Of a stretch of 64,000 bases of DNA, positions 45,295 through 61,436 are shown in pieces. This stretch comes from a virus: positions 1,001 through 65,000 of IMG/VR virus record IMGVR_UViG_3300009703_000016, one strand, 5' to 3'. The stretch's first letter is position 1; the number at the start of each line of letters is the position of its first letter. The notes under the pieces were generated by a model, which was not told where the DNA came from, made no database searches, and worked only from the letters and a program-made list of their open reading frames with translations. Made by a program: the position numbers and the translations under genes.

Positions 45295-47607
45295 TTAGTT
45301 ATCAAGATCTGGCTTTGGTTGAGCGAAACCCCTTGCAACTGCATCTTTATAAAAAGATTTAGCTTTTATTGGGTTCTGCTCCTGAACTAGAATACGGCGA
45401 TATTCATTGTCTGCCCAGTCTTGCGATCGGAAAGTAGGCTTTGTGTCTACCTGATCTTTAGTTTCCTCAGTAACGGAAGGCGTTGTTACCTCAGTTGGAT
45501 TGTCTACGGTTTCTTTAGGTGTTCTAGAGAGTCCGTCATTGACTTTATCAGCAATGCGAACCATGTCAACCTTCCCTGAAATTGTTTCTAGTGAATTGTC
45601 AAGTACCTCATCGCTGATTTTTGAAAAATTATCCTTAAGATCGTCGGTAAGCGTACCTTCTAATGTGTGTAAGTTCTCAAGTCTTGCAATCTTCTGACTA
45701 CGTAAGCTGTGATTAGCATTTACGAGTTGGTCAGTTAAGACTTCAATGTCTGAGTATGTTGCACGCAACTCTTGGCGAAGAGCAGTTAATTGGTCATTCT
45801 TGTTTCCAAGCTTGTCTTCAAGCCTAGTTGACTCTGCAACTTGAGCATCGAATTCATCCTGAACAACAACTAATCCAGTAAGAGCTAAGGCCTTGCGTAG
45901 ACCATCTTCACCAATGCGTTCTGCAAGTGAGATAATCATCTGCTTTAACTGGTTAATCTCTTTATCCTTAAGAGCGGGTGCTTCGTCCATGGACTCTTCA
46001 TCCCAGGGGTTTCCATACAGTCCAAGATCAAGAGTATTAAGAACTGAGCGTACAAGGTCTGCTGTCAGGCGAGAATCCTCTACTTCTTCAGGTGTTTCCT
46101 TGGCAGAGTCTTCAACTTTCGAGTCGGACTCTACACAATCACACCCCATTGCTTTCGCTTTTCTGGAGACAGAAGTATACACACTGCTTTTCTTAGCCGA
46201 TTCAACTGTTGAGCTGTCCATTAGTTTCAAAACTGCATTAACATGAGCACAGTCTACAACAGGCAGGGACATGTCTGGTCCGCAGAACGAACTCTTTGGC
46301 AACTTCTCACGGTCCTCAACCGAGAGCTTGTCTTCAAGCAACTCATTAAAAGCATCGTTAAGCAAGAGGCTTTCTTCGTCTGTTAAGTTAAAGTCATAGG
46401 ATTGACCGTCTTGAACGCTAAAGATCTTATCCAGAATAGGGAGGACATCACCTTTAGATTCATTGTCATCCTGAATGACTTCTTTGTTTGTTTCTGAGCT
46501 ATCTTCGGAGTCTGCAACTGTTTCAGCTGTGTCTTTAACCTCAGCTTCTACCTTAGCGTTTTCCTCTGCTTTTACAGTGGGCTCATCTCCACTCTCTTCA
46601 GAAGTTTTAACTTCATCTTTGACTTTGTCATCATCGGCCTTGGTATCAATATCCATTGCAGAATCCTCCTTGTGAAAGTAATCAGCGACAGGATACAAGA
46701 ACATGCTTGCTTTTTTATCCTTTACGCTATCCAAAATACCATTTGATTCGATAGATAGAACACCTGAATGTCGATCAGCTGGAGTATTAACAAATGAATA
46801 TTCGTCATAATCCAAGCTACCGGCAATAACAAAACACTTCTTGTCTTCATATACCTTTCCAGGTCTATGACCACAGTGTTCCTCATCTAACCAATTAGTA
46901 CTACAAATGGAACATACGGCTTTGTCAGATATAGCTCCAACAGAACCGGTTAAGAATCTACCATCTAAAACTTTTTGGATGGCATCTGGGTCAGTAATAT
47001 CGGCTGTTAGTTCAATGAAACCAACGCCACGATAATGCTTATCACCTAAGACACTATCTATTAGCTTAACCATTTGTAATTTTTCAATAAAAGATTTATC
47101 ACTACCGCAGAAGTCTTTCCAAAAGTCAGAGTCAGCACGGCCAATATCCTTCTTTCTGGAATCTCGCAGTACGTGATTTTTGAACCTATCCACTACTTGA
47201 CCAACAGTCTCTACATATCTTGATTGGACTACGCGACCAACTGGATCTTTATGATCTTCGTGGTGTACCTGGATTGGTTTTGGATATAGTTCAGTAAATG
47301 TTTTTGCGCCATCTCGCATCTTATCTGGTAAGTAGAATCCGTTATTTCTAGTTACGAGACCTGCATGAGTGGCAGCTAGTCTAATAACTAGGCCATTACC
47401 ATTTACTTGAGTAGGTTGAACAGTCTCTGTTCCTGGCTGGGTACCTAATCCAGAAGGATGGGGTTCGCCAGTTTGGGGCTTAAAGGCGCCCATATAATCA
47501 TCTTGTACTTTTTCAAAAGACTGCTGGTTGTAATCTAGAACTTTAAAATCTACTTGATCGCTAAATTCCCAACCTCTATCAGTTTTTCGTCCATTATCAA
47601 TGCTCAT
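45295..47607 (-). CDS. Prohead protease fused to scaffolding domain
   Basis: HHEDHKDPVGRV, FLTGSVG, CSIC...HCGHRPG, YDEYSFVNTPAD. The C-terminal half is acidic and coiled-coil. Confidence 0.8.
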   Translation of the reverse strand: MSIDNGRKTDRGWEFSDQVDFKVLDYNQQSFEKVQDDYMGAFKPQTGEPHPSGLGTQPGTETVQPTQVNGNGLVIRLAATHAGLVTRNNGFYLPDKMRDGAKTFTELYPKPIQVHHEDHKDPVGRVVQSRYVETVGQVVDRFKNHVLRDSRKKDIGRADSDFWKDFCGSDKSFIEKLQMVKLIDSVLGDKHYRGVGFIELTADITDPDAIQKVLDGRFLTGSVGAISDKAVCSICSTNWLDEEHCGHRPGKVYEDKKCFVIAGSLDYDEYSFVNTPADRHSGVLSIESNGILDSVKDKKASMFLYPVADYFHKEDSAMDIDTKADDDKVKDEVKTSEESGDEPTVKAEENAKVEAEVKDTAETVADSEDSSETNKEVIQDDNESKGDVLPILDKIFSVQDGQSYDFNLTDEESLLLNDAFNELLEDKLSVEDREKLPKSSFCGPDMSLPVVDCAHVNAVLKLMDSSTVESAKKSSVYTSVSRKAKAMGCDCVESDSKVEDSAKETPEEVEDSRLTADLVRSVLNTLDLGLYGNPWDEESMDEAPALKDKEINQLKQMIISLAERIGEDGLRKALALTGLVVVQDEFDAQVAESTRLEDKLGNKNDQLTALRQELRATYSDIEVLTDQLVNANHSLRSQKIARLENLHTLEGTLTDDLKDNFSKISDEVLDNSLETISGKVDMVRIADKVNDGLSRTPKETVDNPTEVTTPSVTEETKDQVDTKPTFRSQDWADNEYRRILVQEQNPIKAKSFYKDAVARGFAQPKPDLDN

Positions 47608-47615
47608 ATATAAGT

Positions 47616-50600
47616 CTACTCCTTATTAAAAACTTCGATCTCTGCTCTTGCACTTGCATGTAGCGGAGGGATTTCCTCTAGGTCGAAGCTAGATTGAATG
47701 GAGTGAGAATCTGCAGAGGCATTTTTACACTTATCACAAGAGTCCTCTGGGGCAGCAATTCTCCATTCACTAAACTTCAAGTCTCTAGCTGCTTCAAGAA
47801 AACCAAGGTTATGTGCTTTCCTAATCTCTACATCTTCCATGAATTTGTTTCTAAACCTAAATGAATCAAAGACAGCTTTAACTCTGTGGATTCTATCACC
47901 CTTTGACAGATCCGCAATACTCTGCCTATCTACAGCATTGATTGTATCTCTGATCAGTCGTTCTATGTAGAAATCTATACGTTGTTGGATCTTGGAACGA
48001 GAGCGAATAGACGCATCAATTTGTTGATTACTATCACTATTCAGTTCTTTATAACCCCTCATGAAAGCTGCACTTGCTCGGCTATTGAGATCCTTAGACA
48101 TAGAATCTTGAGTTGAAATAGCAAGCTGTCTAAACAGGAAGAAGTCAAAACCATTCTTATTAACCATCTCTACAAGGTCACTCTCTAAGTCATTATACTT
48201 TGGGGTTAAGAAGTCTGTTGTCTTTGCCTGTGGCTTATTAGCAGCTGCAGTTTTTGCTCTTCTTTCTTCTGCTTGTAACTGCTCCTCTCCAGCTTCAACT
48301 CTTTGAGTTTCTGTTACAGAGGTAGACCTTGAAGCAGCAGCAGCCTTCGCAGCTGGAGTGAAGGGTTCATCAACAGCCTGGATTAAAGCTTTGGGCTCAT
48401 CTATTAGCTTCCAGAATGTAGAATGCCACTCTGGGAACTGTTCTGCTAGATCCTCTATCTCTTGGGCCTCTAGAGAAGTTGGGATATCAAATGGCTGTCT
48501 TCCCATTCCAATTCTTGCTTCATGAATGGTAATAGCATTTTTTGCAAATAGATCTGCATGGTGATTTTCTTTTTTAATCTGATGATCTAAATCGATCTCT
48601 TTAAACTTAAGGAACACTTTGTGTTCTTGGTTTAGTACATCAGAACCGAAGTTAGATTCTAGTAAAAGCTCACTAACTAGAAAATCATTAACCTGACACT
48701 CTAGAGTTCTTTGAATGTCTTTTACAGAGTCAACAAGATTCTGTGACATATTATCAGAAGTAGCACGGTTTGCAGTATTACCCTGGATAGTAATAAGTTT
48801 ATTACGTCTAGTTACGAAAAGGTGATTGGGAACATTATAGCAATAAATAATCCCACTATAATCAACCTCACTAACATCTCTCTTGATGTTCAAAAATCTG
48901 TTTCGAGCTTTTCGTTCCCTCAGGTTAGCTCTTAGGTAAAAGAAGTGACCGATTTCAGGACTATGTTTTTCAGAAATATTACAGTTATATCCAGCAGATA
49001 TTAGAAGTCTCTGGATCAAGTCAACAACAAGCGGCTCGGTTACTCTCATATAGTATTCAAGTCCGCCACTTCTACTGTCTCTTTTTCTGAAGGCTACCTT
49101 CGTGAAGTTACAAGCGAACACCTTCCTAGCTGCTAGAGTAAAGTTCTCTGCCCAGCTAAAAGCCTCTACCGTGGTAAATTTCTTGAAGAATCCACCCAGA
49201 GTATTAGCATCAATTCTTATGCAGTTCTTATTTCCTACCTTCTGGGCTGTCCAAGGAATTTCCAAGTCAGATAAGACTTTGATTATATCCTCTTCCTGAC
49301 CAGTACCCCTTCTTCCTTTTAAGAACAAGAAGTCACCTGGCTCGTTCCACATAGGTTCATTGCCAGCTATATAGCCAGCAACAGCAGCAAGACTTATTTC
49401 GTCCTTGTGAGGTAATTTAACATTTGCCTTGTCTGCAAAAGAGGTTGTACTAAGTAGGTGACACTTGTACCCAGCTTTGCCAGCTAAGATATCCTTTGCA
49501 GACATCTTGGTCCACATACATTCATCGTTTGTACAAACCCACATGTCATGATTTGGAGTGACAAGAATGTCTACTCTTGAGTTTTTAAACTTGATCATCT
49601 TACCAACATAAGGATTTTCATACTTATAATTAGCAATGTGAAATTCAATCCTTTTACTTTCTGGATTATAAGTGGCAATCTTTTCTTTTGTATGATCGAT
49701 AGCCCAGTGGAATTTCCACCCAGATTCAGTTAGTGTTTGAGTACTAGAATCGTAACATTCACCTTCACCCATATCTACAGCTGAAATACCAAGACCAGAG
49801 AAGACTCTCTTCTTGAAATGTTCAAGATAACTCTCTGCACGTAGGGCTCTATTCTCTGTACCAATAAGTTCGATATTGTGTCTATGAGAAGTAACGATAC
49901 CGCCTTCTGAAGGCATGTATTGAATTTCACGTCTGGCGATTTCAATTTCTGTCTCACCCTGTTCTGTAATAGTTGCAGGTTGAGCATCGCTACCTATTTG
50001 GTAATGGAATAGTGGAAATAAGTGTTGATATATAAGAAGTTCTATATTCTCTTCAATCTTTCTAAGAGCACGAATATCATCTATGACTGGAACTAGAGTG
50101 GGCGTCCCAAACATGAGACCTTCTTTCTTGTTGAAGTAGAAATGTACAACATCTTCTGCTGCAAAGATCTTGAAGCTACCATCATGCATACGTTGTTTCC
50201 AACGGCGGACCTTACCAAACTTGTCAGCATCAACCAGCATTGTTTCTGGTGGAGCAATAAAGTATCCAGCGATTGGCTGTAATAGCTTCTCTTTTCCGGG
50301 AACCTGTCTAGGTTGTCCACCTGATGCAGACTCTTTCCTTACTTTTACAAGAAAAGCATTGGATTTTTTAATCAATCCAGAACCGATGGCTTTGACAAGT
50401 TCATCTGTGGGGATACTTGTAGCACGTGCTATTTGGTCAAGTCGTGATTTTATATATTGTATAGTACGAGGATTTGGGCCAACGAATTCATAACCTTCTT
50501 TAAATAGTAGGCCAATCTTCTTTAGGTAAGCCTGATGAACATAGGAGTCGGTATCCTCTACGCGGCCAACCTGGGAAAGATCATATTCAGACTGTATAAA

Positions 50601-50810
50601 GTCACCACGTCTACCCCTGTCTGTATTATAGCTAAGAACATTTGGCTTAACAGGTAAAATATTAGCTGGCTGCTTGTGTTCAGGAATAGAAAAGCCCTTA
50701 AGCTCAGGGCGAATAACTGGACCACGATCTTTGATTCCTACATTAATATTACTATCTGAAATAATAGGAAAATTTACCTTATCTCCAAGTTGAAAACCAA
50801 AAATATTCAT
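47616..50810 (-). CDS. Portal protein containing an intein
   Basis: Portal motifs VVHFYFNK...GTPTLVPVIDDIRALRKIEEN. Start taken at MNIFGF (AAGGG SD); the track start is 50837. C-terminal CDKC...IPPLH resembles a head-morphogenesis motif. Confidence 0.85.
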   Translation of the reverse strand: MNIFGFQLGDKVNFPIISDSNINVGIKDRGPVIRPELKGFSIPEHKQPANILPVKPNVLSYNTDRGRRGDFIQSEYDLSQVGRVEDTDSYVHQAYLKKIGLLFKEGYEFVGPNPRTIQYIKSRLDQIARATSIPTDELVKAIGSGLIKKSNAFLVKVRKESASGGQPRQVPGKEKLLQPIAGYFIAPPETMLVDADKFGKVRRWKQRMHDGSFKIFAAEDVVHFYFNKKEGLMFGTPTLVPVIDDIRALRKIEENIELLIYQHLFPLFHYQIGSDAQPATITEQGETEIEIARREIQYMPSEGGIVTSHRHNIELIGTENRALRAESYLEHFKKRVFSGLGISAVDMGEGECYDSSTQTLTESGWKFHWAIDHTKEKIATYNPESKRIEFHIANYKYENPYVGKMIKFKNSRVDILVTPNHDMWVCTNDECMWTKMSAKDILAGKAGYKCHLLSTTSFADKANVKLPHKDEISLAAVAGYIAGNEPMWNEPGDFLFLKGRRGTGQEEDIIKVLSDLEIPWTAQKVGNKNCIRIDANTLGGFFKKFTTVEAFSWAENFTLAARKVFACNFTKVAFRKRDSRSGGLEYYMRVTEPLVVDLIQRLLISAGYNCNISEKHSPEIGHFFYLRANLRERKARNRFLNIKRDVSEVDYSGIIYCYNVPNHLFVTRRNKLITIQGNTANRATSDNMSQNLVDSVKDIQRTLECQVNDFLVSELLLESNFGSDVLNQEHKVFLKFKEIDLDHQIKKENHHADLFAKNAITIHEARIGMGRQPFDIPTSLEAQEIEDLAEQFPEWHSTFWKLIDEPKALIQAVDEPFTPAAKAAAASRSTSVTETQRVEAGEEQLQAEERRAKTAAANKPQAKTTDFLTPKYNDLESDLVEMVNKNGFDFFLFRQLAISTQDSMSKDLNSRASAAFMRGYKELNSDSNQQIDASIRSRSKIQQRIDFYIERLIRDTINAVDRQSIADLSKGDRIHRVKAVFDSFRFRNKFMEDVEIRKAHNLGFLEAARDLKFSEWRIAAPEDSCDKCKNASADSHSIQSSFDLEEIPPLHASARAEIEVFNKE
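48777..49757 (-). mobile_element. Intein (327 aa) in the portal, with a degenerate LAGLIDADG region
   Basis: Starts GEGE|CYDSSTQTLTESGW, block B ILVTPNHDMW, ends CYNVPNHLFVTRRNKLITIQGN|T. Confidence 0.85.
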
Positions 50811-50817
50811 TCCCTTT

Positions 50818-52293
50818 TTAAACCTCTGTATTATCAAGTTCAGCCAAGAAGGCTGCTAGCTTATTGTCATCTGGGGTCTGTGCCTCAAAGAAACACTGTG
50901 GTATTACCCTTACTGGCGTATTAGCTTGAGTTATTATAGCATCAACTGCCTGATCTACCTCATTATTTCCAGTTGGATCAATTGTTATATTAGATTCTCC
51001 CAAAATATCGTTAACATTAGTATCAAGAACAAGCATGATATTATTTGTTGTCGTATCTACAGATATTAACACATTACTTTCTGGACCTAAGAATTCTTCA
51101 AAGAATTGGGTAAGAACAGAGTTTGCAGCCTCTGCATCTGGTATTTCACAATTCAACCCACCAGAAAGAGCCCGAACTGTAGCAATTAAAAATTGTATCA
51201 TCCTAACAATCAACAGCTTATCATATTGTTTTGTTAAGAATTCCAGTGTTTCCTGTTGACCCCCACCGACAAACTTATCCAGTTCAGATAGTAACTCAGC
51301 AAGAACACTTTCTACCTCCACTACACCACTTGTAACGATTCTTTTCAGATGAAAAACAGAAGAGCCTAGACTGTTCTGCATATTACTTATGTAGTCATCA
51401 TAGCTTAAACCTGCAGATCTAGCGCTTCGAAGTGCACCACTAACAGCTGGACTATTAAAATCTACACCTGTTAACTGCTCAGTGCCTGTTATGCCAGTGA
51501 TCTGTTCTAGTTCATTAGTTCTGCTTTCAATTGCTGAAATGTTCTGATTCTCTAAGAACCCACCGGTTTTTATTTTTTCTAGTGATGCGCTTAGTTGTCC
51601 TATTACACACTGTAGGGGGTCCGTAACAAGAACCTTGTATTGACCAAAAAGCTGTGTGATGTTTGTGAATATAGGTTCAAATATAGGCTGAATTAACAGC
51701 TTCATTATGTCAGTGCTCTCCAGTATCTCCTTGGATGTCTGCCTATATAACATTGCAGACATGAGGGATATCATTCTTTGTATATCAGGAATGCAAACAT
51801 CATTAAGAGCTTTTAGTAATAAACATGCATCTTGATATACGTCAGAGGCATTTAGCATATTCATAATAAAAGCTAACTGTTTTAGATAGTTCCCTAGTAG
51901 ATCTTCAAGTGTATTAAGAAGGGTATCGTTTAAGCTAAGCGCCAAGTCTGCCCTAAATTTTAATCGTAGAGAGCAAGGGACACATTTCTCTAGCCACTCT
52001 AATCCCAAGCCAGACATTTGATTTCCAGCTGCAAGAATTCCAGAAGCGTCGATGGGAAGTTCCACGCTAATACTGGATTCTGAAGCTGCATTTAACAACT
52101 GTTGTATTATATCAGGGATTGGTGGTGATATAGCATTGGTAAGGTTTGAGCTGGCACTATCGGCACCCACCTGCATCATTACAGTGCAGGACATTAGACC
52201 CCCAATAACATTATCCTCCGCAGGCGCAGAGAGCATCTTCTTCTGGAAAAGTTTAGCGACCTGCGAACAGTCTTGTAGTTTCGTAGCTTCCAT
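50818..52293 (-). CDS. Hypothetical helical, Cys-containing protein (probably virion)
   Basis: 491 aa between terminase and portal with scattered Cys pairs (KCVPCS). No family recognised. Confidence 0.6.
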   Translation of the reverse strand: MEATKLQDCSQVAKLFQKKMLSAPAEDNVIGGLMSCTVMMQVGADSASSNLTNAISPPIPDIIQQLLNAASESSISVELPIDASGILAAGNQMSGLGLEWLEKCVPCSLRLKFRADLALSLNDTLLNTLEDLLGNYLKQLAFIMNMLNASDVYQDACLLLKALNDVCIPDIQRMISLMSAMLYRQTSKEILESTDIMKLLIQPIFEPIFTNITQLFGQYKVLVTDPLQCVIGQLSASLEKIKTGGFLENQNISAIESRTNELEQITGITGTEQLTGVDFNSPAVSGALRSARSAGLSYDDYISNMQNSLGSSVFHLKRIVTSGVVEVESVLAELLSELDKFVGGGQQETLEFLTKQYDKLLIVRMIQFLIATVRALSGGLNCEIPDAEAANSVLTQFFEEFLGPESNVLISVDTTTNNIMLVLDTNVNDILGESNITIDPTGNNEVDQAVDAIITQANTPVRVIPQCFFEAQTPDDNKLAAFLAELDNTEV

Positions 52294-53427: not shown

Positions 53428-56400
53428 TTAAATATTCTTGCGCTTGGGTGGACCACCACGTGCGCCTTTTCTAAAGTCGGAACCTCTCCCAGGGGAAACA
53501 TTTGACCTACCTGGAATATAAGACTCTTTCCGTTGTTTTTCAACTGGTTCTGTCCAAAGCGGTAAAGATTCTCTTGCTCTATATCCAAACTGAGTCTTAT
53601 TTGGATTTTCAAAGGCAGATCTGTCATTGTCTGGCTTAGCAGCCTGTGCCTGCTGTAGCTGAGTAGGTGCGCCGCTTCCCATGTTTGGATCAAAATTATT
53701 GTGTCTTATTGGAGAAAACAATATGCGATGATCTGATCCAGGCTTGCCAAACGAGGTTTTTTCAAGAGTGAAGGCAACAAGAGCTAGCATTAAGGCATCA
53801 AGATTGTGATCTCCCAAGCCCTCACTGTTTGTAGCATACACAAACTGTCCAGTTGGAGATACGTTCTTGACTATGTAACCCATCAACTCTGCTGCCATCT
53901 GAATGTCACTTTCGGGGAATAGAATATCTCCAGCTTCAAACCTTCTAACTGAATTTTCAACTAAGAAGCCCTTTGCTGGTTTATTAACCTTTTCTTTAGT
54001 AAAGGGATCGTGGGTCTCTACCTTGCTTCCGAAGTCATAAGCTTTAACAATAAAAGGAAGTCTTGAGTCAATATGCTTAGGTCCCTTCTCTGGATTAGAC
54101 ATTGAGTCATAACCAAACTTATGCAGTACTTCTACTTGCATTGCTCCATAGCCACGATCTACATAAATAGCGAATGGTCTCCACTTTCTATTAAACTCTG
54201 CGATACGATCGCATGCTGCAAGTTGTGTCCAGCCTGCTCTTTGAACAATGTCCTGATCTACAATGTAGAACTTACTAGTTGCTGGATTAAAACCAATCAC
54301 TCTGATGGTTGTACCAATAGCTGGAGAGTTCCAGTCTACACCTATACTATATAGCCAGCTTGGCTGTGGAGACATGTCTTCATATTCATAATCAACCTGT
54401 GCAGCCTCAACGTATTGAACCTGGAAGACACCCTCTTCTTGTTCACCAAAGTCAGCCAAGACTTCATGCTTATAGCCGATATCCGTATACTCATCTCTAA
54501 AGTATTGTTCCATCTCTGGATCCCAGTTAGGATTAACTGCTGATGAGTAATGAAACTCTCGCCACTTATCAGAACGACAGTTGTCATAGAACTTCTCACG
54601 TTTACCAGATGGAGTGGAACTCATCCAAACAAGAGCGTCTGGATGGTCAATGGTGATAGCCATAGCAGCTTCGACATCAGCTTTACTTAGATAATCTGCT
54701 TCATCAAACACAAGCATGTTAGCATCTTGACCACGAGCACTAGCTGCACCACTTCCTGACTTAGTTCCTGCAGTGAAACCCTTTATATAGGAACCATTGT
54801 GAAGCTCCATCGAATATTGAGGAGCTTTAACGTTTCGTCTAATAGAGTTAGAAAGTGCAGGTTTACTTTGTAGTAGTTCTTGTAAACGAGCAAAGATTAG
54901 ATCAATTTGTGATTGAAAAGGAGTGATGAGAACAACTTTAAAATTGTTATTAGTGAACATGTGAAACAGAATAGATATAACAAGACTCTCTGTCTTGCCT
55001 GCTCGACGCCCAATACGAAAGATTTTTCTTTCTGCTGTACAATTATGAACTATGACCCCATCACTAACAAAGTTGTGACGTGTATCTACCTCTATATCGT
55101 AGACAGGTTCTTGGCCAATCAACTCTATGCTTTTAATTTTAGTTCTAGTAGTAGTCTTTAGTTTTCCACGCTTTTTATTATGATTCCTTTTTTTAGTTTC
55201 TGACAAAGCTAATAAAGACTTCTGTTCCTTTCCATAGATAGGACCAGAAAAATTCAGAAAGGTTTCTATATCACTAATTCTATTAATAACTAGAGACCTA
55301 GATACGTCTCCATTCTTTTTCATATCGACATAGACCTTACTCGTTGCAATGCCAATCTTTTTTAACAACAGTCTATATAATCTCAAGAAGTCATCACTAC
55401 CGCTAGATAGTGACAATACTACCCTTAGGTGGCTTAGGTGGTTTTCTTTTTTAAGATAAACACAACCATCACCAGACCACGACCTGTTAATAAAATAAGA
55501 CAATGCTTCTTTTGAAAACTTAAATGCAAAATTAGTAATAGATAACTCTCTCGTATATTTATCCCTACAGCCGATATCTCTTAAAAACACCAGTAGCGGA
55601 TGTGATTTGCCAGATATGCTAATTGTCCAAAATTCTTTATGAGAAACCCCATCCTTGCTAATTTGAGCAGGCCTGTAGGATACTAGTGGACGATTTGTTT
55701 TAAAATGTTTTTGAACTAAATCAGCGAACTCTTCAACATATTCTCTTCTTGTATTTGAAAACTGAACAACATGCTTTTGACCAACAACGCTAGTATTAGA
55801 TACGTAACCATCTGTCACAATATAACCTAATAGCTTTGCAAGATTGATTGAATTTTCGTTTCCAAATATTCCAAAGCTATTTAATGTATATACACGATCA
55901 CCCACAGAGAGCCCCTTTTCTATAGAGGAGTAGACTCTTTTAAAGGACTTGTGACCAAATAATTGATTAGTTGCCCCAGCTTTAACCCATGAAAGAATAG
56001 GGTGATTGTCAGTTACTTTTAATATATCACCATTAGTGAGTTCTATTTTATAGATATTTTTGAGACCATTATCCCAGGTGTTTAATACTTTATAAGAGTT
56101 TTGAGTCTGTTTTCTATTTTCATTATAGGTAACAACCTTGTCTCCAACTTTTACATCCTTGATGTTTCTAACAGTTCCATCAGCTAGAAATATTTTAGAA
56201 TCCCCTTGTAAACAACGGAGCATTTCTGCCTGATAAGGACGATGGTAGTTAGAGGCTCTTCCTGGAAACCTCTCTACCAACCTGTCACGTTCTTCTGCAT
56301 TTTTTCTTATCCAGACACTGTGATCTGGATCAAGACAATGCCAATCTAAAACTTCTGCTGCCCAAGTTACAGGATCCAGAAGCAGGGCAATGTTGTCATG

Positions 56401-56559
56401 TGCTGGAATGAGTGATGCTGTTTCATCACCTACATAAGATTCAGGGATGCCTCCACATTGAATCTGGAAGGTTGAGCCCTTTTTTAGCTTATGCTTGCAG
56501 GTGTAATTCTTAACGCAACTACGACAAGTTTCACTTGTATTTAATAGATTGAGTGCCAA
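53428..56559 (-). CDS. terL: Terminase large subunit containing an intein
   Basis: RPYQAEML, Walker A GRRAGKT, Walker B MLVFDEADY, SSTPSG coupling motif, nuclease IGVDWN...YVDRGYG...DHNLDAL. TTG start. Confidence 0.93.
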   Translation of the reverse strand: MALNLLNTSETCRSCVKNYTCKHKLKKGSTFQIQCGGIPESYVGDETASLIPAHDNIALLLDPVTWAAEVLDWHCLDPDHSVWIRKNAEERDRLVERFPGRASNYHRPYQAEMLRCLQGDSKIFLADGTVRNIKDVKVGDKVVTYNENRKQTQNSYKVLNTWDNGLKNIYKIELTNGDILKVTDNHPILSWVKAGATNQLFGHKSFKRVYSSIEKGLSVGDRVYTLNSFGIFGNENSINLAKLLGYIVTDGYVSNTSVVGQKHVVQFSNTRREYVEEFADLVQKHFKTNRPLVSYRPAQISKDGVSHKEFWTISISGKSHPLLVFLRDIGCRDKYTRELSITNFAFKFSKEALSYFINRSWSGDGCVYLKKENHLSHLRVVLSLSSGSDDFLRLYRLLLKKIGIATSKVYVDMKKNGDVSRSLVINRISDIETFLNFSGPIYGKEQKSLLALSETKKRNHNKKRGKLKTTTRTKIKSIELIGQEPVYDIEVDTRHNFVSDGVIVHNCTAERKIFRIGRRAGKTESLVISILFHMFTNNNFKVVLITPFQSQIDLIFARLQELLQSKPALSNSIRRNVKAPQYSMELHNGSYIKGFTAGTKSGSGAASARGQDANMLVFDEADYLSKADVEAAMAITIDHPDALVWMSSTPSGKREKFYDNCRSDKWREFHYSSAVNPNWDPEMEQYFRDEYTDIGYKHEVLADFGEQEEGVFQVQYVEAAQVDYEYEDMSPQPSWLYSIGVDWNSPAIGTTIRVIGFNPATSKFYIVDQDIVQRAGWTQLAACDRIAEFNRKWRPFAIYVDRGYGAMQVEVLHKFGYDSMSNPEKGPKHIDSRLPFIVKAYDFGSKVETHDPFTKEKVNKPAKGFLVENSVRRFEAGDILFPESDIQMAAELMGYIVKNVSPTGQFVYATNSEGLGDHNLDALMLALVAFTLEKTSFGKPGSDHRILFSPIRHNNFDPNMGSGAPTQLQQAQAAKPDNDRSAFENPNKTQFGYRARESLPLWTEPVEKQRKESYIPGRSNVSPGRGSDFRKGARGGPPKRKNI
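55042..56214 (-). mobile_element. Intein (391 aa) with a LAGLIDADG homing endonuclease in TerL
   Basis: MLR|CLQGDSKIFLADG...KVTDNHPI...LLGYIVTDG...SWSGDGCV...VYDIEVDTRHNFVSDGVIVHN|C. Confidence 0.95.
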
Positions 56560-56562
56560 TGA

Positions 56563-57042
56563 TTAGATACCGCCGCCGAAGCTGCCAACTCCAAGGTTCC
56601 CTCTAAGGCTAGCGCCTAAGTTACCATATGATCTACGTGCTAAGCTCGCCATGTAATTGAAGTCTCTGCGGCCCTGAGCCCCCATGTTTCCCATACCACG
56701 CATTGCGCTAATCCCCAATCGTTGACCACCTGAGATATCCCCTGTTATCCCTTTCATACCACGTAGGTGTCCTGATCTATATCCACGTCTAGCACCGCGC
56801 ATGCCAGCTCTACCATAGCGACCCATAGCAGCGCCACCCATGGCTCCAGTAAGGGCTCCGCCCAAACGACTTTGTCCACGGTCACGACCTATAGTTCCAC
56901 CATAGATGCCGCCACCAGCTGCTCCAGCTAGAGTTGCCATATTAGCAGCACCGATTGCTTGAGACCCCCGACTAAAAGCACCTTTGGCAAAATATGCGCC
57001 ATCGCCAACCACACTACCTAAGAAAAAACCTGCCCCTGGCAT
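56563..57042 (-). CDS. Gly/Arg/Met-rich small protein, candidate internal or ejection protein
   Basis: 159 aa of low complexity (GAAMGRYGRAGMRGARRGYRSG). Confidence 0.55.
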   Translation of the reverse strand: MPGAGFFLGSVVGDGAYFAKGAFSRGSQAIGAANMATLAGAAGGGIYGGTIGRDRGQSRLGGALTGAMGGAAMGRYGRAGMRGARRGYRSGHLRGMKGITGDISGGQRLGISAMRGMGNMGAQGRRDFNYMASLARRSYGNLGASLRGNLGVGSFGGGI

Positions 57043-57055
57043 ATTAAAACAACTC

Positions 57056-57511
57056 CTATCTGTGAAGAATTCTAGCTTCGTTGCCTAGAGTTCTAGACAT
57101 TGCAGACCTATCTCTAGAAAGAGATCTTGCTGACTGCATCTTCATTTGATTTAGTGTACCATAACTATCCATAAATGGTCTATACATGTTAACTTGCCGA
57201 TTAGAAGTGTAAATCTCCTTACCCTTTTGGTATGCAAAATATCCACCAACGGCTGCAGCTCCAACAGCCCATCCATGAGGACCAGCGCTTATTGCCATAT
57301 CAAACAGTGCTGCTTCACCCAGACCCATTAACACACCAGCACCAGCACCGTAGTCTTGTCCATAGGAGTAATATCCCGTTCCAGCGCTAATACCATAACC
57401 TGCAACTGTTGCAGTTCCAATAGCTCCTGCTTTAGCAAAACCTGCTGCACTACGAACTTTTTGAGATCTACCGACAGCAGAAAGACCAGTTGATATAAAT
57501 CTACTTATCAT
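57056..57511 (-). CDS. Gly/Ala-rich amphipathic protein, candidate ejection protein
   Basis: 151 aa with GxxxG hydrophobic helices and a basic C-terminus. Confidence 0.55.
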   Translation of the reverse strand: MISRFISTGLSAVGRSQKVRSAAGFAKAGAIGTATVAGYGISAGTGYYSYGQDYGAGAGVLMGLGEAALFDMAISAGPHGWAVGAAAVGGYFAYQKGKEIYTSNRQVNMYRPFMDSYGTLNQMKMQSARSLSRDRSAMSRTLGNEARILHR

Positions 57512-58119
57512 CTTGTTCTACTCCCGTGAAGTCCAAAGACAAGACCCTGAGTGGACTGTTGAAACTCTGTAGACCGATAACTTGATCTTTTAAATTGTTG
57601 AGTATAGGATTTCATTTCACTTCGCATTGCACTTGCTCCCTGAGCTGCAGCCTGTAGCCCCCCAACTGGATCATCAGATAACATTCCATAGGCAAGGAGT
57701 CCCGCACCTGCGACTGCCCCTATCTGAGGAATAGATGCACCAAATGCTAATTTAGAAAATGCATTTGCAGCTTTATAAGACTTATTAGCAGCTGGACTTG
57801 TTGCAGCACGATATAAACCACTTACACCACTACCTGCTAAGCTTGCTGTCTTTAAGGCTGCCCCGCCAATCATCTTTCCCCTTCCAGCCCACACCTTTCT
57901 ACTTCTACTTCTCATTTTCTTCTCTAGAAAAGAATCGTGTGCGCCTACATCTGGGGTAAAGCTCATAGCTCTGGAGGTTGCACCTGTTAGGTTCTTTCCT
58001 GAACTCATATTTATATTACGATAGGGTTGAGGACTACCATAATATCCCTGTGCAAAGTCTTTTGATGAGTTTGGCAGGCCAATTGGAATATTATGATATG
58101 CATCTTGTAAAAAGCTCAT
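57508..58119 (-). CDS. Gly/Ala-rich basic protein, candidate ejection protein
   Basis: 203 aa with a hydrophobic segment IGAVAGAGLLAYGML. Coupled to its neighbours. Confidence 0.55.
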   Translation of the reverse strand: MSFLQDAYHNIPIGLPNSSKDFAQGYYGSPQPYRNINMSSGKNLTGATSRAMSFTPDVGAHDSFLEKKMRSRSRKVWAGRGKMIGGAALKTASLAGSGVSGLYRAATSPAANKSYKAANAFSKLAFGASIPQIGAVAGAGLLAYGMLSDDPVGGLQAAAQGASAMRSEMKSYTQQFKRSSYRSTEFQQSTQGLVFGLHGSRTR

Positions 58120-58128
58120 TATATGATT

Positions 58129-60600
58129 CTATCCTGATCTTGATCTTTTACCACCAGAAGAACCAGATCTTGATAACTCTTCAGATGCAGCTGCTTGTGC
58201 TTTTGCCCTACGAAGCTTACGTGCTGCAATTCTCGCTTGACGTGCAGGGTTTACTTTACCAGAAATAACACTTTTCTCAGCCAGTGCTCCTCGGTTAAGA
58301 TCTAGCGGCATATCTAGCTTGGCTGCGTGTCTTTGAAGCTCAGAGATGTCCATAGCTGTTTCTCTTACGTTGTATCCATGGGCGGCTACGGTCGACATAA
58401 CCTCTTCTTTAACAGAACTGCCTGGTACATGCTCAAAGCTTTTTATATTAAATTCAGTATTTACTTTACCAGCAAAGCCAAAGTCGATAACACCAACCTG
58501 GCCTTGTTTTGTTAACATGACGTTTTTAAAGTGGAGATCACCATGGACGTACCCTTTCTTGTGCATGTGTTCAACGTTCTGTTGTAATTTACTCATATGG
58601 GATGCCTTAAATAGACCCTGATCAAGAGCATCAGCAGCTGAATGCCCTTCAAAAAGCTCCATGTCTATAAAATGCTGCTTATCCTTACTGCCTGATGCAT
58701 AAACAGTGGGACCGAAGCTGTCTTCAAACTTTTGCATAGTTGAAACTTCTTCTGTTCCCATCTCTCCTCTTTTTCTAACGAAGGAAAATTCTTTACCTCT
58801 AAATTGACCTTTCATTAAATAGGCTTCACCAAAAGCACTTTCGTCACCAAGACGGGCTCCCTGCTTAGCTGTACTTAGTGCCTCCTGGAATCCCTTACTC
58901 TGTGTCATCTGTTTAAAGGTTTCCTTACCTTTAGTTAGAGCACGTAGAGCATCCCAACCAGAACCAAACCCTGTCATCTTCTTGCGAATATTTTGGGCTA
59001 TCCCCTTGTGGCCCATACCTTCAATAACATTAAAAGCATCATCAAATCCTTGTCGAGATTCAGCAACTCCAATAGCTGCTTGTCTTCCAAGCTTTCCGCC
59101 ACCTAGGCTAATAAAGGCACCTAGCTCATTTTGTTCTCCTGTTTTAATAAAATCGACAAGCTGTTTACGAAAATTAGATGATCCCGTTTTGACAAGCTTT
59201 TTTGTTAACTGTGGCTGCTGCGCAGCTGCTACAGCTACTTCTTTAATAGCACGTCTATTTTTTAGTCCTGCATAGATATACTTAGTGGCCGCAAAAGTAC
59301 CTGCAGCACCAGCTATAGCACCACCTGTCAAACCTCCGCTTGCTGCAGTCATTCCCAAGTGAATCATTTCTGCACTTGCTGCTGTTGTGGCACCTATAGC
59401 CAGTGGGGCACCTTTCATTGTATCTGCAGCAACTTGAGCTGTTAGATTATAAGTTTCATGAACACCACCCTTGATAGCAACTTTACCAGCTTGTAACATA
59501 CGGGCTGCAATTCTTATATAGCCACTACCAAACTCTGTCATCTGTTTACGAAGAACTTCAGCAAAACCACCATGTCTTAAACCTTCTACTGTATTGTATT
59601 CATCATCACTAGCAGAGAAGGCACTGGATAGACCATTTGCTGTAATTAAACCAGCTGCAAGGATGCCAGCACCAGCACCAAACCTTCTTAGAAGTTTAGG
59701 TATGTTCTGCCAGGCAACCCTAGCTCTTTCAGACTTACTGGGATAAAAGAACTCTCCTGCAGCTTTTTCTGCTTTAGAAGGTGCACTTTTATATCCTGCT
59801 ACTGTAGAGGCTAACCAGCCACGAGCAAACTCGGGAGTTTCAGCTACCCTCCTCATCTCTCCTGTACCAATGGCATCGTAGAGGCGTCGAGTCATTTTGA
59901 CATCAGCACTACTTTGGTGGGCTTGTGAGGTTAGCTTCGAGTCGGGCTCAAGTAGGGGAAATATCTGCTCCAGTCTCCAACCACGAGCTAGGTAGTCCTT
60001 CACAGCAGATGGACCTCTTCGCTCTACTTGATTACCGAAGGCCTCCATCTGACGAAGCATGTTGTATTCAACTGGTCTACTGGAGTGGGGCAGCTTCTCC
60101 CAGGCCGTCTGGGCCTGGCTCCAAGTTTTGCCACCCAGCTGCTCCCTGAACGTCCCCTGTTGAAGGTGAGCACCTATGGTCTCTCCCAGTATCTTCTTTG
60201 TTCTAAGACCAACGTCTATTTGTCTGTGACCCCTCAGGGCTGATGATAGTTCACCCTCAAGTCCATGCATTCTAGCTCTTTGTTGCATGAAGGGTATATC
60301 GAAGTTGGAACTATTAAATCCAACGACAGGGCTACCTGCTGGTGCTCCCTGTAGTCCTGTTATGAACTGTTTGATTACATCTCTTTCTGGAAAGGTTCTA
60401 GATGCTTGTGATACCTGAGGTATAATATTTTCTTGAGAAAACTTGCTTAACCAGCTTCCTGACTGGGGATGGGCAAATGCTTCCTGGACCAGGCTCCTGT
60501 TGGACGAATAGGACGCAGAGAGGATGGAAGAACCCCTCTTTCCAGAAGAATCTAGTCCACCAGTCTCTATGTCGAATATGAAGGGCTCAGGGAGCTTCAA
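58129..60600 (-). CDS. DEDDh 3'-5' exonuclease / protein kinase-like fusion protein
   Basis: Exonuclease motifs IFDIETGG, VGFNSSNFDIPF, AHQSSAD. Kinase motifs LGDESAFGEAY, FVRK, HGDLHFKN (58531-58545), IDFG (58477-58485). Confidence 0.85.
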   Translation of the reverse strand: MKLPEPFIFDIETGGLDSSGKRGSSILSASYSSNRSLVQEAFAHPQSGSWLSKFSQENIIPQVSQASRTFPERDVIKQFITGLQGAPAGSPVVGFNSSNFDIPFMQQRARMHGLEGELSSALRGHRQIDVGLRTKKILGETIGAHLQQGTFREQLGGKTWSQAQTAWEKLPHSSRPVEYNMLRQMEAFGNQVERRGPSAVKDYLARGWRLEQIFPLLEPDSKLTSQAHQSSADVKMTRRLYDAIGTGEMRRVAETPEFARGWLASTVAGYKSAPSKAEKAAGEFFYPSKSERARVAWQNIPKLLRRFGAGAGILAAGLITANGLSSAFSASDDEYNTVEGLRHGGFAEVLRKQMTEFGSGYIRIAARMLQAGKVAIKGGVHETYNLTAQVAADTMKGAPLAIGATTAASAEMIHLGMTAASGGLTGGAIAGAAGTFAATKYIYAGLKNRRAIKEVAVAAAQQPQLTKKLVKTGSSNFRKQLVDFIKTGEQNELGAFISLGGGKLGRQAAIGVAESRQGFDDAFNVIEGMGHKGIAQNIRKKMTGFGSGWDALRALTKGKETFKQMTQSKGFQEALSTAKQGARLGDESAFGEAYLMKGQFRGKEFSFVRKRGEMGTEEVSTMQKFEDSFGPTVYASGSKDKQHFIDMELFEGHSAADALDQGLFKASHMSKLQQNVEHMHKKGYVHGDLHFKNVMLTKQGQVGVIDFGFAGKVNTEFNIKSFEHVPGSSVKEEVMSTVAAHGYNVRETAMDISELQRHAAKLDMPLDLNRGALAEKSVISGKVNPARQARIAARKLRRAKAQAAASEELSRSGSSGGKRSRSG
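58954..59607 (-). repeat. Two copies of a ~30-aa linker motif within the exonuclease-kinase protein
   Basis: DDEYNTVEGLRHGGFAEVLRKQMTEFGSGY (about 59518-59607) and DDAFNVIEGMGHKGIAQNIRKKMTGFGSGW (about 58954-59046). Confidence 0.85.
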
Positions 60601-60602
60601 GT

Positions 60603-61436
60603 CTAATCACCAGACTTATTGTTACCTTCATCTATCGTCTGGTCAATAAGAGATTCTGGAGTTACGATCTCTGCATCTATTATTTGGGAATCTGCCTTTT
60701 TAACTTGAGATTGTAGATCTTTAAGTTGTTGTTTTACATTGGCCATGCTGGAACTGGCATCTTCATCTGTTTTCTGTTTTAGAGCGGCTTCTCTTCTGTA
60801 TTTCTCCTGTCTGTCTCCAACCATCAATTTAACTAGTTTACTTTTTCTGTTGGCTAGTTTTTGTTTTTGTTCAAAGATTGGTGAGACTTGGAGGTTTGTT
60901 ATTACATTGCCGTCTCTGTCTATGCCTACGGATTGATCTGTTACTAGAGTTGCATTCTCTGGTCTACGTAGGGTCATTGTTAGTCTCCACTGTAGAACTT
61001 CTATTTCTGCTAGTTCAGTACATATTCCTATTTCTGTGAAGGAGTTGGGATCTACGTCATACTCTACTACGTAGTTCATTACTGACTCTTTTAGCATAGT
61101 TGTTTCTAGGAGGCAGTCTTTGTCTAGAGGTGCTTTGTTCATTTGTTGTAGGGCACACTCTCTAGCAAAGGGGCATTGGCTGGCTGCACATCTCATGGGG
61201 GCAAAGGTTGCTGCTCCTGTTGCCATCTTCTTTAGGGTTTTTAGTAGGACCTTTTCTTGTTCTTTGTTTAGTTCTATGTCTGAATAGTCTTCTGCTCCAG
61301 CTTCTAGTGTTTGTTGGAGTGTTTTATGTGTTTTGTTTTCTATGTCTGTCCAAGCTGATTGGGTAACTATAGATAGACTTCTAGGTGGGGGTAGAAGTTC
61401 TTCTAGTCTTAAGCTGTCATCTTTTTCGTCTGTCAT
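60603..61436 (-). CDS. Putative terminase small subunit
   Basis: 277 aa with a Cys cluster (CAASQCPFAREC...KDC), helical core and charged tail, near the head of the packaging operon. Inferred from position. Confidence 0.4.
   Translation of the reverse strand: MTDEKDDSLRLEELLPPPRSLSIVTQSAWTDIENKTHKTLQQTLEAGAEDYSDIELNKEQEKVLLKTLKKMATGAATFAPMRCAASQCPFARECALQQMNKAPLDKDCLLETTMLKESVMNYVVEYDVDPNSFTEIGICTELAEIEVLQWRLTMTLRRPENATLVTDQSVGIDRDGNVITNLQVSPIFEQKQKLANRKSKLVKLMVGDRQEKYRREAALKQKTDEDASSSMANVKQQLKDLQSQVKKADSQIIDAEIVTPESLIDQTIDEGNNKSGD

What the first reader, a model, noticed from the sequence alone, without database searches (positions are those of the whole stretch)
58129..60600. Exonuclease plus protein kinase polyprotein in the DNA-packaging operon: a candidate injected effector
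Seen: an N-terminal DEDDh exonuclease with all three motifs (DIE, FD, H..D) and a C-terminal kinase-like domain with a Gly-loop, a candidate catalytic Lys (FVRK), HGDLHxxN and DFG. The two are separated by Gly/Ala amphipathic helices. Known: phage Ser/Thr kinases (T7 gp0.7) modify host proteins but are early, non-structural genes. Inferred: the position between the putative TerS and TerL, next to ejection-like small proteins, suggests a late-made, capsid-packaged enzyme delivered at infection for host takeover or anti-defence. I do not recognise this domain combination.
Basis: partly seen in the sequence, partly recalled or inferred. Interest (0 to 1): 0.8.

Follow-up and report, generated by a model that had tools for sequence, protein, structure and literature searches.

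The report
Modular exonuclease-kinase cargo protein of phage
An uncultured giant phage encodes, between its two DNA-packaging genes, one long protein that strings a DNA/RNA-trimming enzyme and a compact kinase together with a repeated 35-residue connector; hundreds of related phages carry differently assembled versions at the same spot, probably as enzymes loaded into the virus head and delivered to the host.

Summary
Window 58129-60600 (- strand) is one 823-aa gene. It has an N-terminal DEDDh exonuclease (AF2 pLDDT 91; Z 17.4 to a TREX1 homolog). It has a C-terminal protein-kinase-like domain with a much reduced C-lobe (Pfam Pkinase above its cut-off; Z 15.5). All catalytic residues are present and are kept in about 95-100% of homologs.

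Modules are joined by a conserved ~35-aa connector, (F/I)SGKDDxYNTIEGLxHGGxAxxxRKxxTDFGSGW. It occurs 1-7 times per protein and twice here. The 151 representatives show 115 different module orders: exonuclease, SNase, kinase and many unknown modules.

In all 22 independent loci the gene follows a homolog of 0305phi8-36 gp112 (probably the small terminase) and/or precedes TerL, as far as each contig reaches. In 0305phi8-36 that interval encodes three virion proteins shown by mass spectrometry.

The family is absent from 50,697 GenBank phage records and the connector from 185,579 prokaryote genomes.

Packaging, cleavage at the connector and injection are inferred, not shown. The closest concept is Iyer et al.'s injected "polyvalent proteins". 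I rate it a new variant of a known kind.

The parts
58129..60600 (-). Whole gene, 823 aa (P0001): exonuclease - connector - Gly/Ala-rich module - connector - kinase - basic tail
   Evidence: ORF list and translation. An identical protein lies on a 150-kb ENA contig. 267 cluster representatives match at E<=1e-10.
59701..60600 (-). DEDDh (DnaQ/RNase T/TREX-like) 3'-5' exonuclease domain with extra helices, aa 1-300
   Evidence: D10, E12, D101, H228 and D233 are conserved. AF2 pLDDT is above 94 over residues 1-290. Z 17.4 to 9mrd and 16.1 to RNase T.
59617..59694 (-). Weakly hydrophobic Gly/Ala helix, aa 303-328
   Evidence: Kyte-Doolittle value ~1.3 over 19 aa. AF2 predicts a helix at 302-323. 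This is not a general feature of connectors.
59518..59619 (-). Connector (junction) motif, copy 1, aa 328-361: FSASDDEYNTVEGLRHGGFAEVLRKQMTEFGSGY
   Evidence: Junction HMM E 5e-22. Alignment A4. The N-terminal half is disordered in the AF2 model, pLDDT below 50.
59056..59517 (-). Middle module, aa 362-515: Gly/Ala-rich, no known family
   Evidence: Module cluster of 9 members. No Pfam hit. Composition G 14%, A 18%.
58954..59055 (-). Connector (junction) motif, copy 2, aa 516-549: RQGFDDAFNVIEGMGHKGIAQNIRKKMTGFGSGW
   Evidence: Junction HMM E 1.3e-20. Alignment A4. Low to middling pLDDT in the AF2 model.
58282..58902 (-). Protein-kinase-like domain with a reduced C-lobe, aa 567-773 (K610, E618, D688, N693, D706)
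   Evidence: Pfam Pkinase 41.6 bits against a cut-off of 31.7; APH 31.9 against 23.2. PDB phmmer hit to MST4 at 1.3e-8. VIA Z 15.5 to 6vvg over 183 aa. Catalytic columns are kept in 60-61 of 61 homologs.
58132..58290 (-). Basic C-terminal tail, aa 771-823, ending ...GGKRSRSG
   Evidence: Tail HMM E 4e-10. The pattern G[RK][RKGN][HSA] occurs in the last 35 aa of 88 of 151 homologs, against 0.019 expected per window. AF2 predicts a long helix.
60603..61436 (-). Upstream partner gene, 277 aa: homolog of 0305phi8-36 gp112, probably the small terminase
   Evidence: phmmer E 3.9e-11 to gp112; the family profile scores 2.6e-28. It lies directly upstream of the polyprotein in every locus that reaches that far. 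A weak Atlas lead points to Terminase_4.
56563..58119 (-). Three small Gly/Ala-rich proteins (203, 151 and 159 aa) between the polyprotein and TerL
   Evidence: ORFs. The w151 family profile hits 0305phi8-36 gp115 at E 1.1e-8. In 0305phi8-36 the flanking gp113, gp114 and gp116 are MS-detected virion proteins.
53428..56559 (-). Large terminase interrupted by an intein with a LAGLIDADG endonuclease
   Evidence: Pfam Intein_splicing, LAGLIDADG_3, Hint and Terminase_6N; PHROG 2 at E 1e-30.
45295..47607 (-). Prohead protease/scaffold fusion (770 aa), the candidate enzyme for processing the connectors
   Evidence: phmmer E 2e-29 to 0305phi8-36 gp123, annotated protease/scaffold. It is present in 10 of 10 other records that carry a connector-bearing gene. 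H57 and S163 are invariant and there is a CxxC..CxH site.

Best explanation
The gene encodes a late-made, multi-enzyme cargo protein of an uncultured ~180-200 kb contractile-tailed phage related to Bacillus phage 0305phi8-36.

It belongs to a family built on one plan. A DEDDh exonuclease usually comes first and a compact kinase usually last. A variable set of modules lies between them (SNase, a second exonuclease type, Gly-rich segments, many unknown domains). Each module boundary is marked by a conserved, intrinsically disordered ~35-residue connector. The protein ends in a basic tail.

I propose the following sequence of events. The protein is loaded into the prohead. It is cut at the exposed connectors, most simply by the phage's gp123-like prohead protease, perhaps after the conserved Glu of NTIE|GL. 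The freed enzymes then leave the head with the DNA. In the host the nuclease would attack host nucleic acids and the kinase would phosphorylate host targets, for takeover or counter-defence.

Shown: domain identities, intact active sites, the connector, module shuffling and the fixed gene position. Inferred: packaging, cleavage, injection and targets.
For: - Domains and active sites.
- Family size: 1452 representatives at E<=1e-3 and 267 at E<=1e-10.
- Connector: 400 copies in 151 of 151 homologs. Asp0, Asn4 and Gly8 are fixed in the 213 regex-selected seed copies. In the HMM-derived sample A4, Phe and Ser of FGSGW are invariant and Asp, Asn, Gly, His, Arg and Thr are at least 90%. It occurs only in this gene in the window and only in the one equivalent ORF in five other records of 86-155 kb.
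- Shuffling: 115 architectures among 151 representatives. Tandem connectors lie 43-75 aa apart, and some single-module proteins begin with a connector, like an N-terminal propeptide.
- Position: in 22 independent loci, 18 of them fetched only by the connector's DNA pattern, the gene follows the gp112-like gene and/or precedes TerL, as far as each contig reaches.
- Synteny with 0305phi8-36 is anchored on both sides: gp112 at 2.6e-28 and gp115 at 1.1e-8. gp113, gp114 and gp116 in that interval are annotated as MS-identified virion proteins.
- The N-terminal half of the connector is disordered in both AF2 models, so it would be accessible to a protease.
- A prohead protease co-occurs in 10 of 10 records.
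- Precedents: T4 Alt and the internal proteins, and polyvalent proteins (PMC5512222); SPN3US head ejection proteins whose propeptides are removed after AXE (PMC10052503).
Against: - There are no proteomic, expression or cleavage data for any family member, and none is from a cultured phage.
- The terminase genes that flank it are themselves not virion components, so position alone does not prove packaging.
- The only small neighbour with a detectable 0305phi8-36 homolog (gp115) was not among the MS-detected proteins.
- 0305phi8-36, ME3 and KLEB27-3 have no such gene.
- Active nucleases stored next to the packaged genome would need to be kept inert.
- A 35-residue conserved motif is far longer than a typical prohead-protease site.
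- No connector-like sequence was found in other head genes.
- HGDLHxxN is also the signature of APH, Bud32 and RIO-type kinases, so the substrate need not be a protein.
Confidence: 0.5

Rival explanations
1. It is a cytoplasmic late enzyme and is not packaged. The protein stays in the infected cell. Its nucleases degrade host or unpackaged DNA/RNA, for nucleotide salvage or to clear branched DNA for the terminase. The kinase regulates late functions. The connectors are flexible tethers or docking sites for the packaging machinery.
For: The gene lies between the two terminase genes, which act in the cytoplasm. The recurrent annotated modules are nucleases: exonuclease, SNase and RNase T. This avoids storing active nucleases beside packaged DNA.
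Against: Extreme cassette-like variation, with 115 architectures among 151 representatives, is typical of conflict effectors and not of a housekeeping packaging factor. Cultured relatives package DNA without it. The interval encodes virion proteins in 0305phi8-36. A conserved terminal tail and propeptide-like N-terminal connectors point to sorting into a particle.
Confidence: 0.2
2. The connector is a self-processing element and not a protease site. The invariant Ser, the near-invariant His and Asp, or the Asn-Thr pair would cut the chain in cis (by a Ser/His/Asp-type or Asn-cyclisation chemistry). The modules would then separate without any other enzyme.
For: The motif has many conserved polar residues: D0, D1, N4, E7, H11, R19, T23 and S27. 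That is more than a simple cleavage site needs. P0001 has no peptidase module of its own. The connector occurs only in this gene.
Against: In both AF2 models the half of the connector from the DD pair to HGG has pLDDT below 50. No known autoproteolytic motif of this size or sequence was found in Pfam or in the literature.
Confidence: 0.12
3. It is a structural or ejection-channel component with accessory enzymes. Together with the three small Gly/Ala-rich proteins, its Gly-zipper-like segments would insert into the host membrane during infection to help DNA entry. The enzyme domains would be secondary passengers.
For: Weakly hydrophobic Gly/Ala helices occur in P0001 (aa 303-328 and the middle module) and in w203 and w151. 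w159 shows a faint glycine-zipper Pfam hit.
Against: Hydrophobic stretches before connectors are not a family feature: 6.9% against 3.6% in controls. The Gly-rich middle module is found in only 9 module instances. The conserved parts of the family are the enzymes, the connector and the tail.
Confidence: 0.08

Closest known systems
Polyvalent proteins of phages and conjugative elements (Iyer, Burroughs, Anand, de Souza, Aravind 2017, PMC5512222)
   Same: Several unrelated enzymatic domains sit in one phage polypeptide that is encoded among virion genes and predicted to be packaged and injected. They include nucleases and a clade of protein kinases that has lost the C-terminal subdomain. Module content varies like cassettes.
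   Different: That paper proposes autoprocessing by built-in zincin-like peptidase or HINT domains. This family has none in P0001 and instead has a repeated 35-aa connector and a conserved tail, neither of which turned up in a literature string search. The paper's kinase clade has an insert between the catalytic His and Asp and comes from prophages of Verrucomicrobia and Bacteroidetes. Here H-G-D is contiguous, and the connector's DNA pattern is absent from 185,579 prokaryote genomes.
T4 internal proteins and Alt (capsid-targeting sequence, gp21 cleavage) and the phiKZ/SPN3US head ejection proteins (PMC10052503)
   Same: These are late proteins loaded into the prohead, trimmed by the prohead protease after a Glu, and ejected with the DNA to act on the host. 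Single-module family members that begin with a connector look like cargo with an N-terminal propeptide.
   Different: Those are separate genes with short or unconserved propeptides. Here several cargo modules sit in one reading frame, separated by one strongly conserved motif. The protease is of the gp123/HK97 gp4/P2 gpO type as annotated in the 0305phi8-36 record, and its specificity is unknown.
Phage T7 gp0.7 Ser/Thr kinase
   Same: It is a phage-encoded kinase thought to act on host proteins at the start of infection.
   Different: T7 gp0.7 is an early, non-virion gene product. This kinase is encoded in the late packaging operon, is fused to nucleases and has a cut-down C-lobe. No sequence match to T7-type kinases was seen; the PHROG hit is phrog_2361.
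MuF-fused toxins and phage P1 Dar proteins (cited in PMC5512222; PMC12810830)
   Same: Effector or anti-restriction proteins are encoded beside portal and terminase genes and carried in the head.
   Different: No MuF, portal-fusion or Dar-like domain was detected. The architecture and the connector are unrelated.

Membership tests
DEDDh (DnaQ-like) 3'-5' exonuclease superfamily | Exo I motif DxE | tested here: met
   D10-I-E12. D and E are each present in 57 of 60 aligned homologs.
DEDDh (DnaQ-like) 3'-5' exonuclease superfamily | Exo II Asp and Exo III Hx4D | tested here: met
   N96..F100-D101, and H228 with D233; each is present in 59 of 60 homologs.
DEDDh (DnaQ-like) 3'-5' exonuclease superfamily | RNase H-like exonuclease fold | tested here: met
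   The AF2 model has pLDDT 90.9. Z 17.4 to 9mrd (165 aa, 2.5 A), 16.1 to RNase T and 15.2 to the Pol III epsilon subunit.
DEDDh (DnaQ-like) 3'-5' exonuclease superfamily | Score above a curated Pfam family cut-off (e.g. PF00929 RNase_T) | tested here: not met
   Only sub-threshold hits: DNA_pol_B_exo2 22.4 against 24, and exo1 16 against 23. This is a divergent branch, not a member of a curated family.
Protein-kinase-like (ePK/ELK) superfamily | Pfam Pkinase gathering score | tested here: met
   41.6 bits against 31.7. APH (31.9 against 23.2), PK_Tyr_Ser-Thr (28.8 against 23.1) and ABC1 (26.8 against 22.9) also score above their cut-offs.
Protein-kinase-like (ePK/ELK) superfamily | Beta-3 Lys, alpha-C Glu, catalytic HxD...N and DFG Asp | tested here: met
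   K610, E618, H686/D688, N693 and D706. K610, E618, D688, N693 and D706 are kept in 60-61 of 61 homologs; the His column is H in 43 and N in 16.
Protein-kinase-like (ePK/ELK) superfamily | Gly-rich loop GxGxxG | tested here: inconclusive
   The family consensus is LGxGxFG. P0001 reads G585-DESA-F590-G591, with Ser588 where 56 of 61 homologs have Gly.
Protein-kinase-like (ePK/ELK) superfamily | Full C-lobe (APE, alpha-F to alpha-I) of canonical Ser/Thr kinases | tested here: not met
   Only two short helices follow the DFG motif before the tail. About 183 of ~260 kinase residues align. No APE motif is seen in the sequence.
Polyvalent proteins (PMC5512222) | Two or more domains of disparate biochemistry in one polypeptide of a phage or plasmid | tested here: met
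   Exonuclease plus kinase here. SNase and RNase T occur in relatives, and there is a possible ATP-grasp module, which is only a lead.
Polyvalent proteins (PMC5512222) | Encoded among virion or packaging genes | tested here: met
   The gene lies between the gp112-like gene and TerL in 22 of 22 independent loci, as far as each contig reaches.
Polyvalent proteins (PMC5512222) | Delivered into the host with the DNA | not testable with these tools
   This needs virion proteomics or infection experiments.
Polyvalent-protein kinase clade (PMC5512222) | Insert between the catalytic His and Asp; found in prophages of Verrucomicrobia or Bacteroidetes | tested here: not met
   H686-G-D688 is contiguous. 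The connector's DNA pattern has no match in 185,579 prokaryote genomes. Loss of the C-lobe is shared. Common descent was not tested.
Prohead-protease-processed head cargo (T4 IP/Alt, SPN3US type) | The phage encodes a prohead protease | tested here: met
   w770 matches 0305phi8-36 gp123 at 2e-29. His and Ser are invariant. It is present in 10 of 10 related records.
Prohead-protease-processed head cargo (T4 IP/Alt, SPN3US type) | Cleavage of the cargo at defined sites and presence in the mature head | not testable with these tools
   This needs mass spectrometry of virions or in vitro cleavage.
MuF-fused head toxins | MuF (Phage_Mu_F) domain | tested here: not met
   No such Pfam hit in P0001 at E<=0.1.

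The most novel reading that the evidence does not exclude
The 35-residue connector is an autonomous 'plug-and-play' signal. It is a linear motif that both loads whatever module follows it into the prohead and specifies where the chain is cut, by the prohead protease or by itself. Phages could then swap enzyme cassettes at a fixed slot by recombination within the connector's DNA. This would be a new, transferable rule for packaging and releasing protein cargo in tailed-phage heads.
Probability: 0.25. Interest if true: 0.8.

Novelty: new variant of a known kind. Interest (0 to 1): 0.62.

Why it matters
If the family is packaged and injected, it is a widespread toolkit that uncultured giant phages use in the first seconds of infection. 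There are at least 267 clusters at the 50% identity level, and the commonest parts are a nuclease and a kinase.

The conserved connector would give a simple sequence rule for finding cargo boundaries and new effector domains; most modules have no known family. It could also serve as a handle for loading foreign proteins into phage heads.

The finding extends the 'polyvalent protein' concept to a lineage of apparently non-lysogenic phages and to a new way of joining modules.

Tried and rejected
- Complex prediction of the prohead-protease domain (A5) with the connector (A4): no verdict, score 0.16 against a mark of 0.32. This is no evidence either way.
- Word-based homolog search with the connector region alone: only the protein itself and one relative.
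I replaced it with a degenerate DNA pattern for the connector.
- The same pattern in genome contigs: 0 matches.
- tblastn of P0001 against 50,697 phage records: only two weak kinase-only hits.
- Sequencing-run search: two DNA holders from subsurface metagenomes, which are possibly the source. No RNA holder was listed.
- Idea that a hydrophobic helix always precedes the connector: rejected, 6.9% against 3.6% in controls.
- Idea that the connector is a general capsid-targeting tag on other genes: not supported. It occurs only in the one ORF in the window and in five other large records.
- Idea that w203 is the homolog of MS-detected gp114, and that its C-terminal STxGLVQGLHxGRH motif matches the polyprotein tail: not supported, E 0.19 and no hits.
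- Pfam, NCBIfam and PHROG scans of the neighbours w277, w203, w151, w159, w148, w223 and w491: nothing.
- Literature string search for YNTIEGL, DFGSGW and NTIEGL: no relevant paper.
- The primary proteomics paper on 0305phi8-36 (PMC2171028) is not held. I relied on the GenBank feature notes instead.
- Most other family modules gave no Pfam hit.
Full report
**1. What is there**

The finding's coordinates are exact. Window 58129..60600 (- strand) is one open frame of 823 codons. It starts at TTG, 2 nt after the stop of the upstream gene, with a GGTGA box 6 nt upstream. Promoter-like and terminator-like sites in 52-64 kb are no more frequent than in shuffled sequence. The gene therefore sits in a tightly packed run of same-strand genes.

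The window is part of a 65,976-bp IMG/VR virus record with an estimated completeness of 35%. The same protein lies on a 150-kb ENA contig. The DNA is held by two subsurface-metagenome runs.

**2. The two enzymes are real**

*Kinase*
- Pfam Pkinase scores 41.6 bits, above its 31.7 cut-off, at residues 616-722. APH, ABC1, RIO1 and Kdo give weaker hits.
- PDB sequence search finds STE20-type kinases at 1e-8.
- An alignment of 61 homologous C-terminal modules (A1) keeps K610, E618, D688, N693 and D706 in 60-61 of 61 sequences.
- The AF2 model of 505-823 (pLDDT 84.3) aligns to protein kinases at Z 14-15.5 over ~183 residues. The best matches are baculovirus PK-1, Aurora A and PknB.
- After the DFG motif there are only two short helices before a long basic helix. 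The C-lobe is therefore strongly reduced.
- The catalytic loop HGDLHFKN also resembles the APH, Bud32 and RIO types. The substrate class is open.

*Exonuclease*
- Pfam hits are all below their cut-offs, and PHROG 192 gives 1.7e-7.
- In an alignment of 60 N-terminal modules (A2) the DEDDh residues D10, E12, D101, H228 and D233 are kept in 57-59 of 60.
- The AF2 model has pLDDT 90.9. It matches a TREX1 homolog at Z 17.4, and RNase T, ExoI, the DinG exonuclease domain and Pol III epsilon at Z 15-16.

**3. A large family with a conserved connector**

An exhaustive phmmer search found 1452 cluster representatives at E<=1e-3, 267 at E<=1e-10 and 87 at E<=1e-30. Their lengths range from 261 to 2454 aa, with up to eight separately matched stretches.

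In the best 151 a ~35-residue motif recurs. Its consensus is (F/I)SGKDDxYNTIEGLxHGGxAxxxRKxxTDFGSGW.
- A profile of the motif finds 400 copies in 151 of 151 proteins, 1-7 per protein.
- In all six frames of the 64-kb window it finds only the two copies in this gene, at aa 328-361 and 516-549.
- In five other records of 86-155 kb it again occurs only in the one equivalent ORF.
- In both AF2 models the half from DD to HGG is disordered (pLDDT below 50), and the RKxxTxFGSGW half forms a short helix.
- The motif strings are not found in the paper library, and Pfam has no model for the motif.

**4. Modules are shuffled at the connectors**

Cutting the 151 proteins at the connectors gives 536 pieces. 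They cluster as follows:

| Module | Instances | Notes |
|---|---|---|
| Kinase | 120 | 85 are C-terminal |
| Exonuclease of this type | 80 | 77 are N-terminal |
| SNase (PF00565) | 43 | |
| RNase_T-type exonuclease | 4 | |
| This gene's Gly/Ala-rich middle module | 9 | |
| Other recurrent clusters | more than 15 clusters | no Pfam hit |

There are 115 different module orders. 47 proteins have exonuclease plus kinase. Connectors can be tandem, 43-75 aa apart. Eight proteins begin with a connector or within one, for example a stand-alone 261-aa kinase that starts MFDDAYNIIEGL.

Most proteins end in a basic tail. G[RK][RKGN][HSA] occurs in the last 35 aa of 88 of 151, against 0.019 expected per window.

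**5. The gene position is fixed**

I collected 22 independent loci. Four came from exact-protein look-ups and 18 IMG/VR loci were fetched only by a degenerate DNA pattern for the connector. In every one, the connector-bearing ORF lies directly downstream of a homolog of the window's 277-aa gene. It also lies 1.5-3.5 kb upstream of TerL, wherever the contig reaches that far. With module profiles, 14 of the 22 have a kinase and 14 an exonuclease-like module.

**6. Relation to cultured phages**

The capsid protein is 32-37% identical to those of the jumbo myoviruses Moorella MTATph1, Bacillus 0305phi8-36 and KLEB27-3, and Acinetobacter ME3.
- The 277-aa gene is a homolog of 0305phi8-36 gp112: 3.9e-11 pairwise and 2.6e-28 with a family profile that excludes it.
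- The 151-aa gene family hits gp115 at 1.1e-8.
- Between gp112 and TerL, 0305phi8-36 encodes gp113-gp116.
- The gp112-like protein is probably the small terminase. There is a weak Atlas lead to Terminase_4, and an intein interrupts its ME3 homolog.
- None of these cultured phages has a connector-bearing gene.
- The connector's DNA pattern has no match in 185,579 prokaryote genomes. This suggests the family is not carried by prophages.

**7. Mechanism**

I commit to a packaged, processed and injected cargo, with about 50% confidence.

*Reasons for*
- The gene lies in an interval that makes virion proteins in a relative.
- Cassette-like diversity is typical of conflict effectors.
- The constant parts are what a sorting and processing system would need: an exposed linear connector before each module, sometimes at the very N-terminus like a propeptide, and a common tail.
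- A gp123-like prohead protease/scaffold (45295-47607; 2e-29 to gp123) is present in 10 of 10 related records. It has invariant His and Ser residues.
- The conserved T-I-E|G in the connector loosely recalls the x-x-Glu sites of T4, phiKZ and SPN3US proteases (PMC10052503). That resemblance is inference only.

*Reasons against*
- There is no experimental datum.
- The motif is longer than any known protease site.
- Nucleases would lie beside the packaged DNA.
- The one small neighbour with a 0305phi8-36 homolog corresponds to gp115, which was not detected by MS.

The rivals are given separately: a cytoplasmic late enzyme, a self-cleaving connector, and a membrane or ejection-channel role.

**8. 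Comparison with what is known**

The concept matches the 'polyvalent proteins' of Iyer et al. 2017 (PMC5512222). That paper describes injected multi-domain phage proteins and a kinase clade without the C-terminal subdomain. The differences are:
- the connector-and-tail architecture;
- no built-in peptidase in P0001;
- a contiguous HGD in the kinase;
- a different phage lineage, with no prophage copies.

I therefore rate it a new variant of a known kind, not categorically new.

Earlier notes of this scan on the same genome bear on this reading. The repeated linker (e1-5344493) and the three small Gly-rich proteins (e1-5344494) agree with it. A one-chain RNA polymerase among the tail genes (e1-5344491) would fit an injected takeover kit, but I did not test it.

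Noticed in passing
window 53428-56559 (-): The large terminase is interrupted by a full intein (Hint plus LAGLIDADG, aa ~111-509). Related loci have TerL genes with and without inteins, from 634 to 1268 aa.
   Followed up: partly
window 47616-50837 (-): The portal protein (1073 aa; PHROG 9232; homolog of 0305phi8-36 gp122) has a ~320-aa insertion between the parts that align to gp122. The insertion hits PHROGs of intein-bearing RNR and ThyA genes, so it is probably a second intein.
   Followed up: partly
window 7178-13219 (-): A 2013-aa protein has a central Peptidase_M23 domain (E 2.8e-18). It may be a tape-measure or tail-associated lysin.
   Followed up: no
window 45295-47607 (-): The prohead protease/scaffold fusion carries a conserved CxxC...CxH cluster inside the protease domain (alignment A5). 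This looks like a zinc site, and I do not know one from HK97 gp4 or P2 gpO.
   Followed up: no
L007 10529-16786: There is a tandem duplication of a three-gene block (92 aa, 142 aa and a TerL-like gene). It gives two intein-bearing TerL-like ORFs in a row. This could be an assembly artefact or a real duplication.
   Followed up: no
L038 (Acinetobacter phage ME3) 4078-5373: The ME3 homolog of gp112/w277, annotated as an RNA methyltransferase, contains an intein (Intein_splicing, E 3e-17). This suggests an essential protein such as the small terminase. A TnsA-like endonuclease gene follows it.
   Followed up: partly
P0039:333-725 (module cluster of 16): The largest unannotated module of the family gets consistent ESM-Atlas feature hits (0.90) to viral ATP-grasp, RimK and TTL-like clusters. 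It might be a protein-modifying ligase module. This is a lead only; Pfam gives no hit.
   Followed up: partly
loci L003-L026, first gene after the polyprotein; window 57508-58119 (-): The first small protein downstream of the polyprotein ends in a conserved C-terminal motif, STxGLVQG(L/M)HxGRH. The second ends in MRQRS...GNEAxxxH, which it shares with 0305phi8-36 gp115. Their functions are unknown.
   Followed up: partly
L019 3551-5329: In this record the gp112-like gene is 593 aa, about twice the usual length. It may be a fusion or hold an insertion.
   Followed up: no
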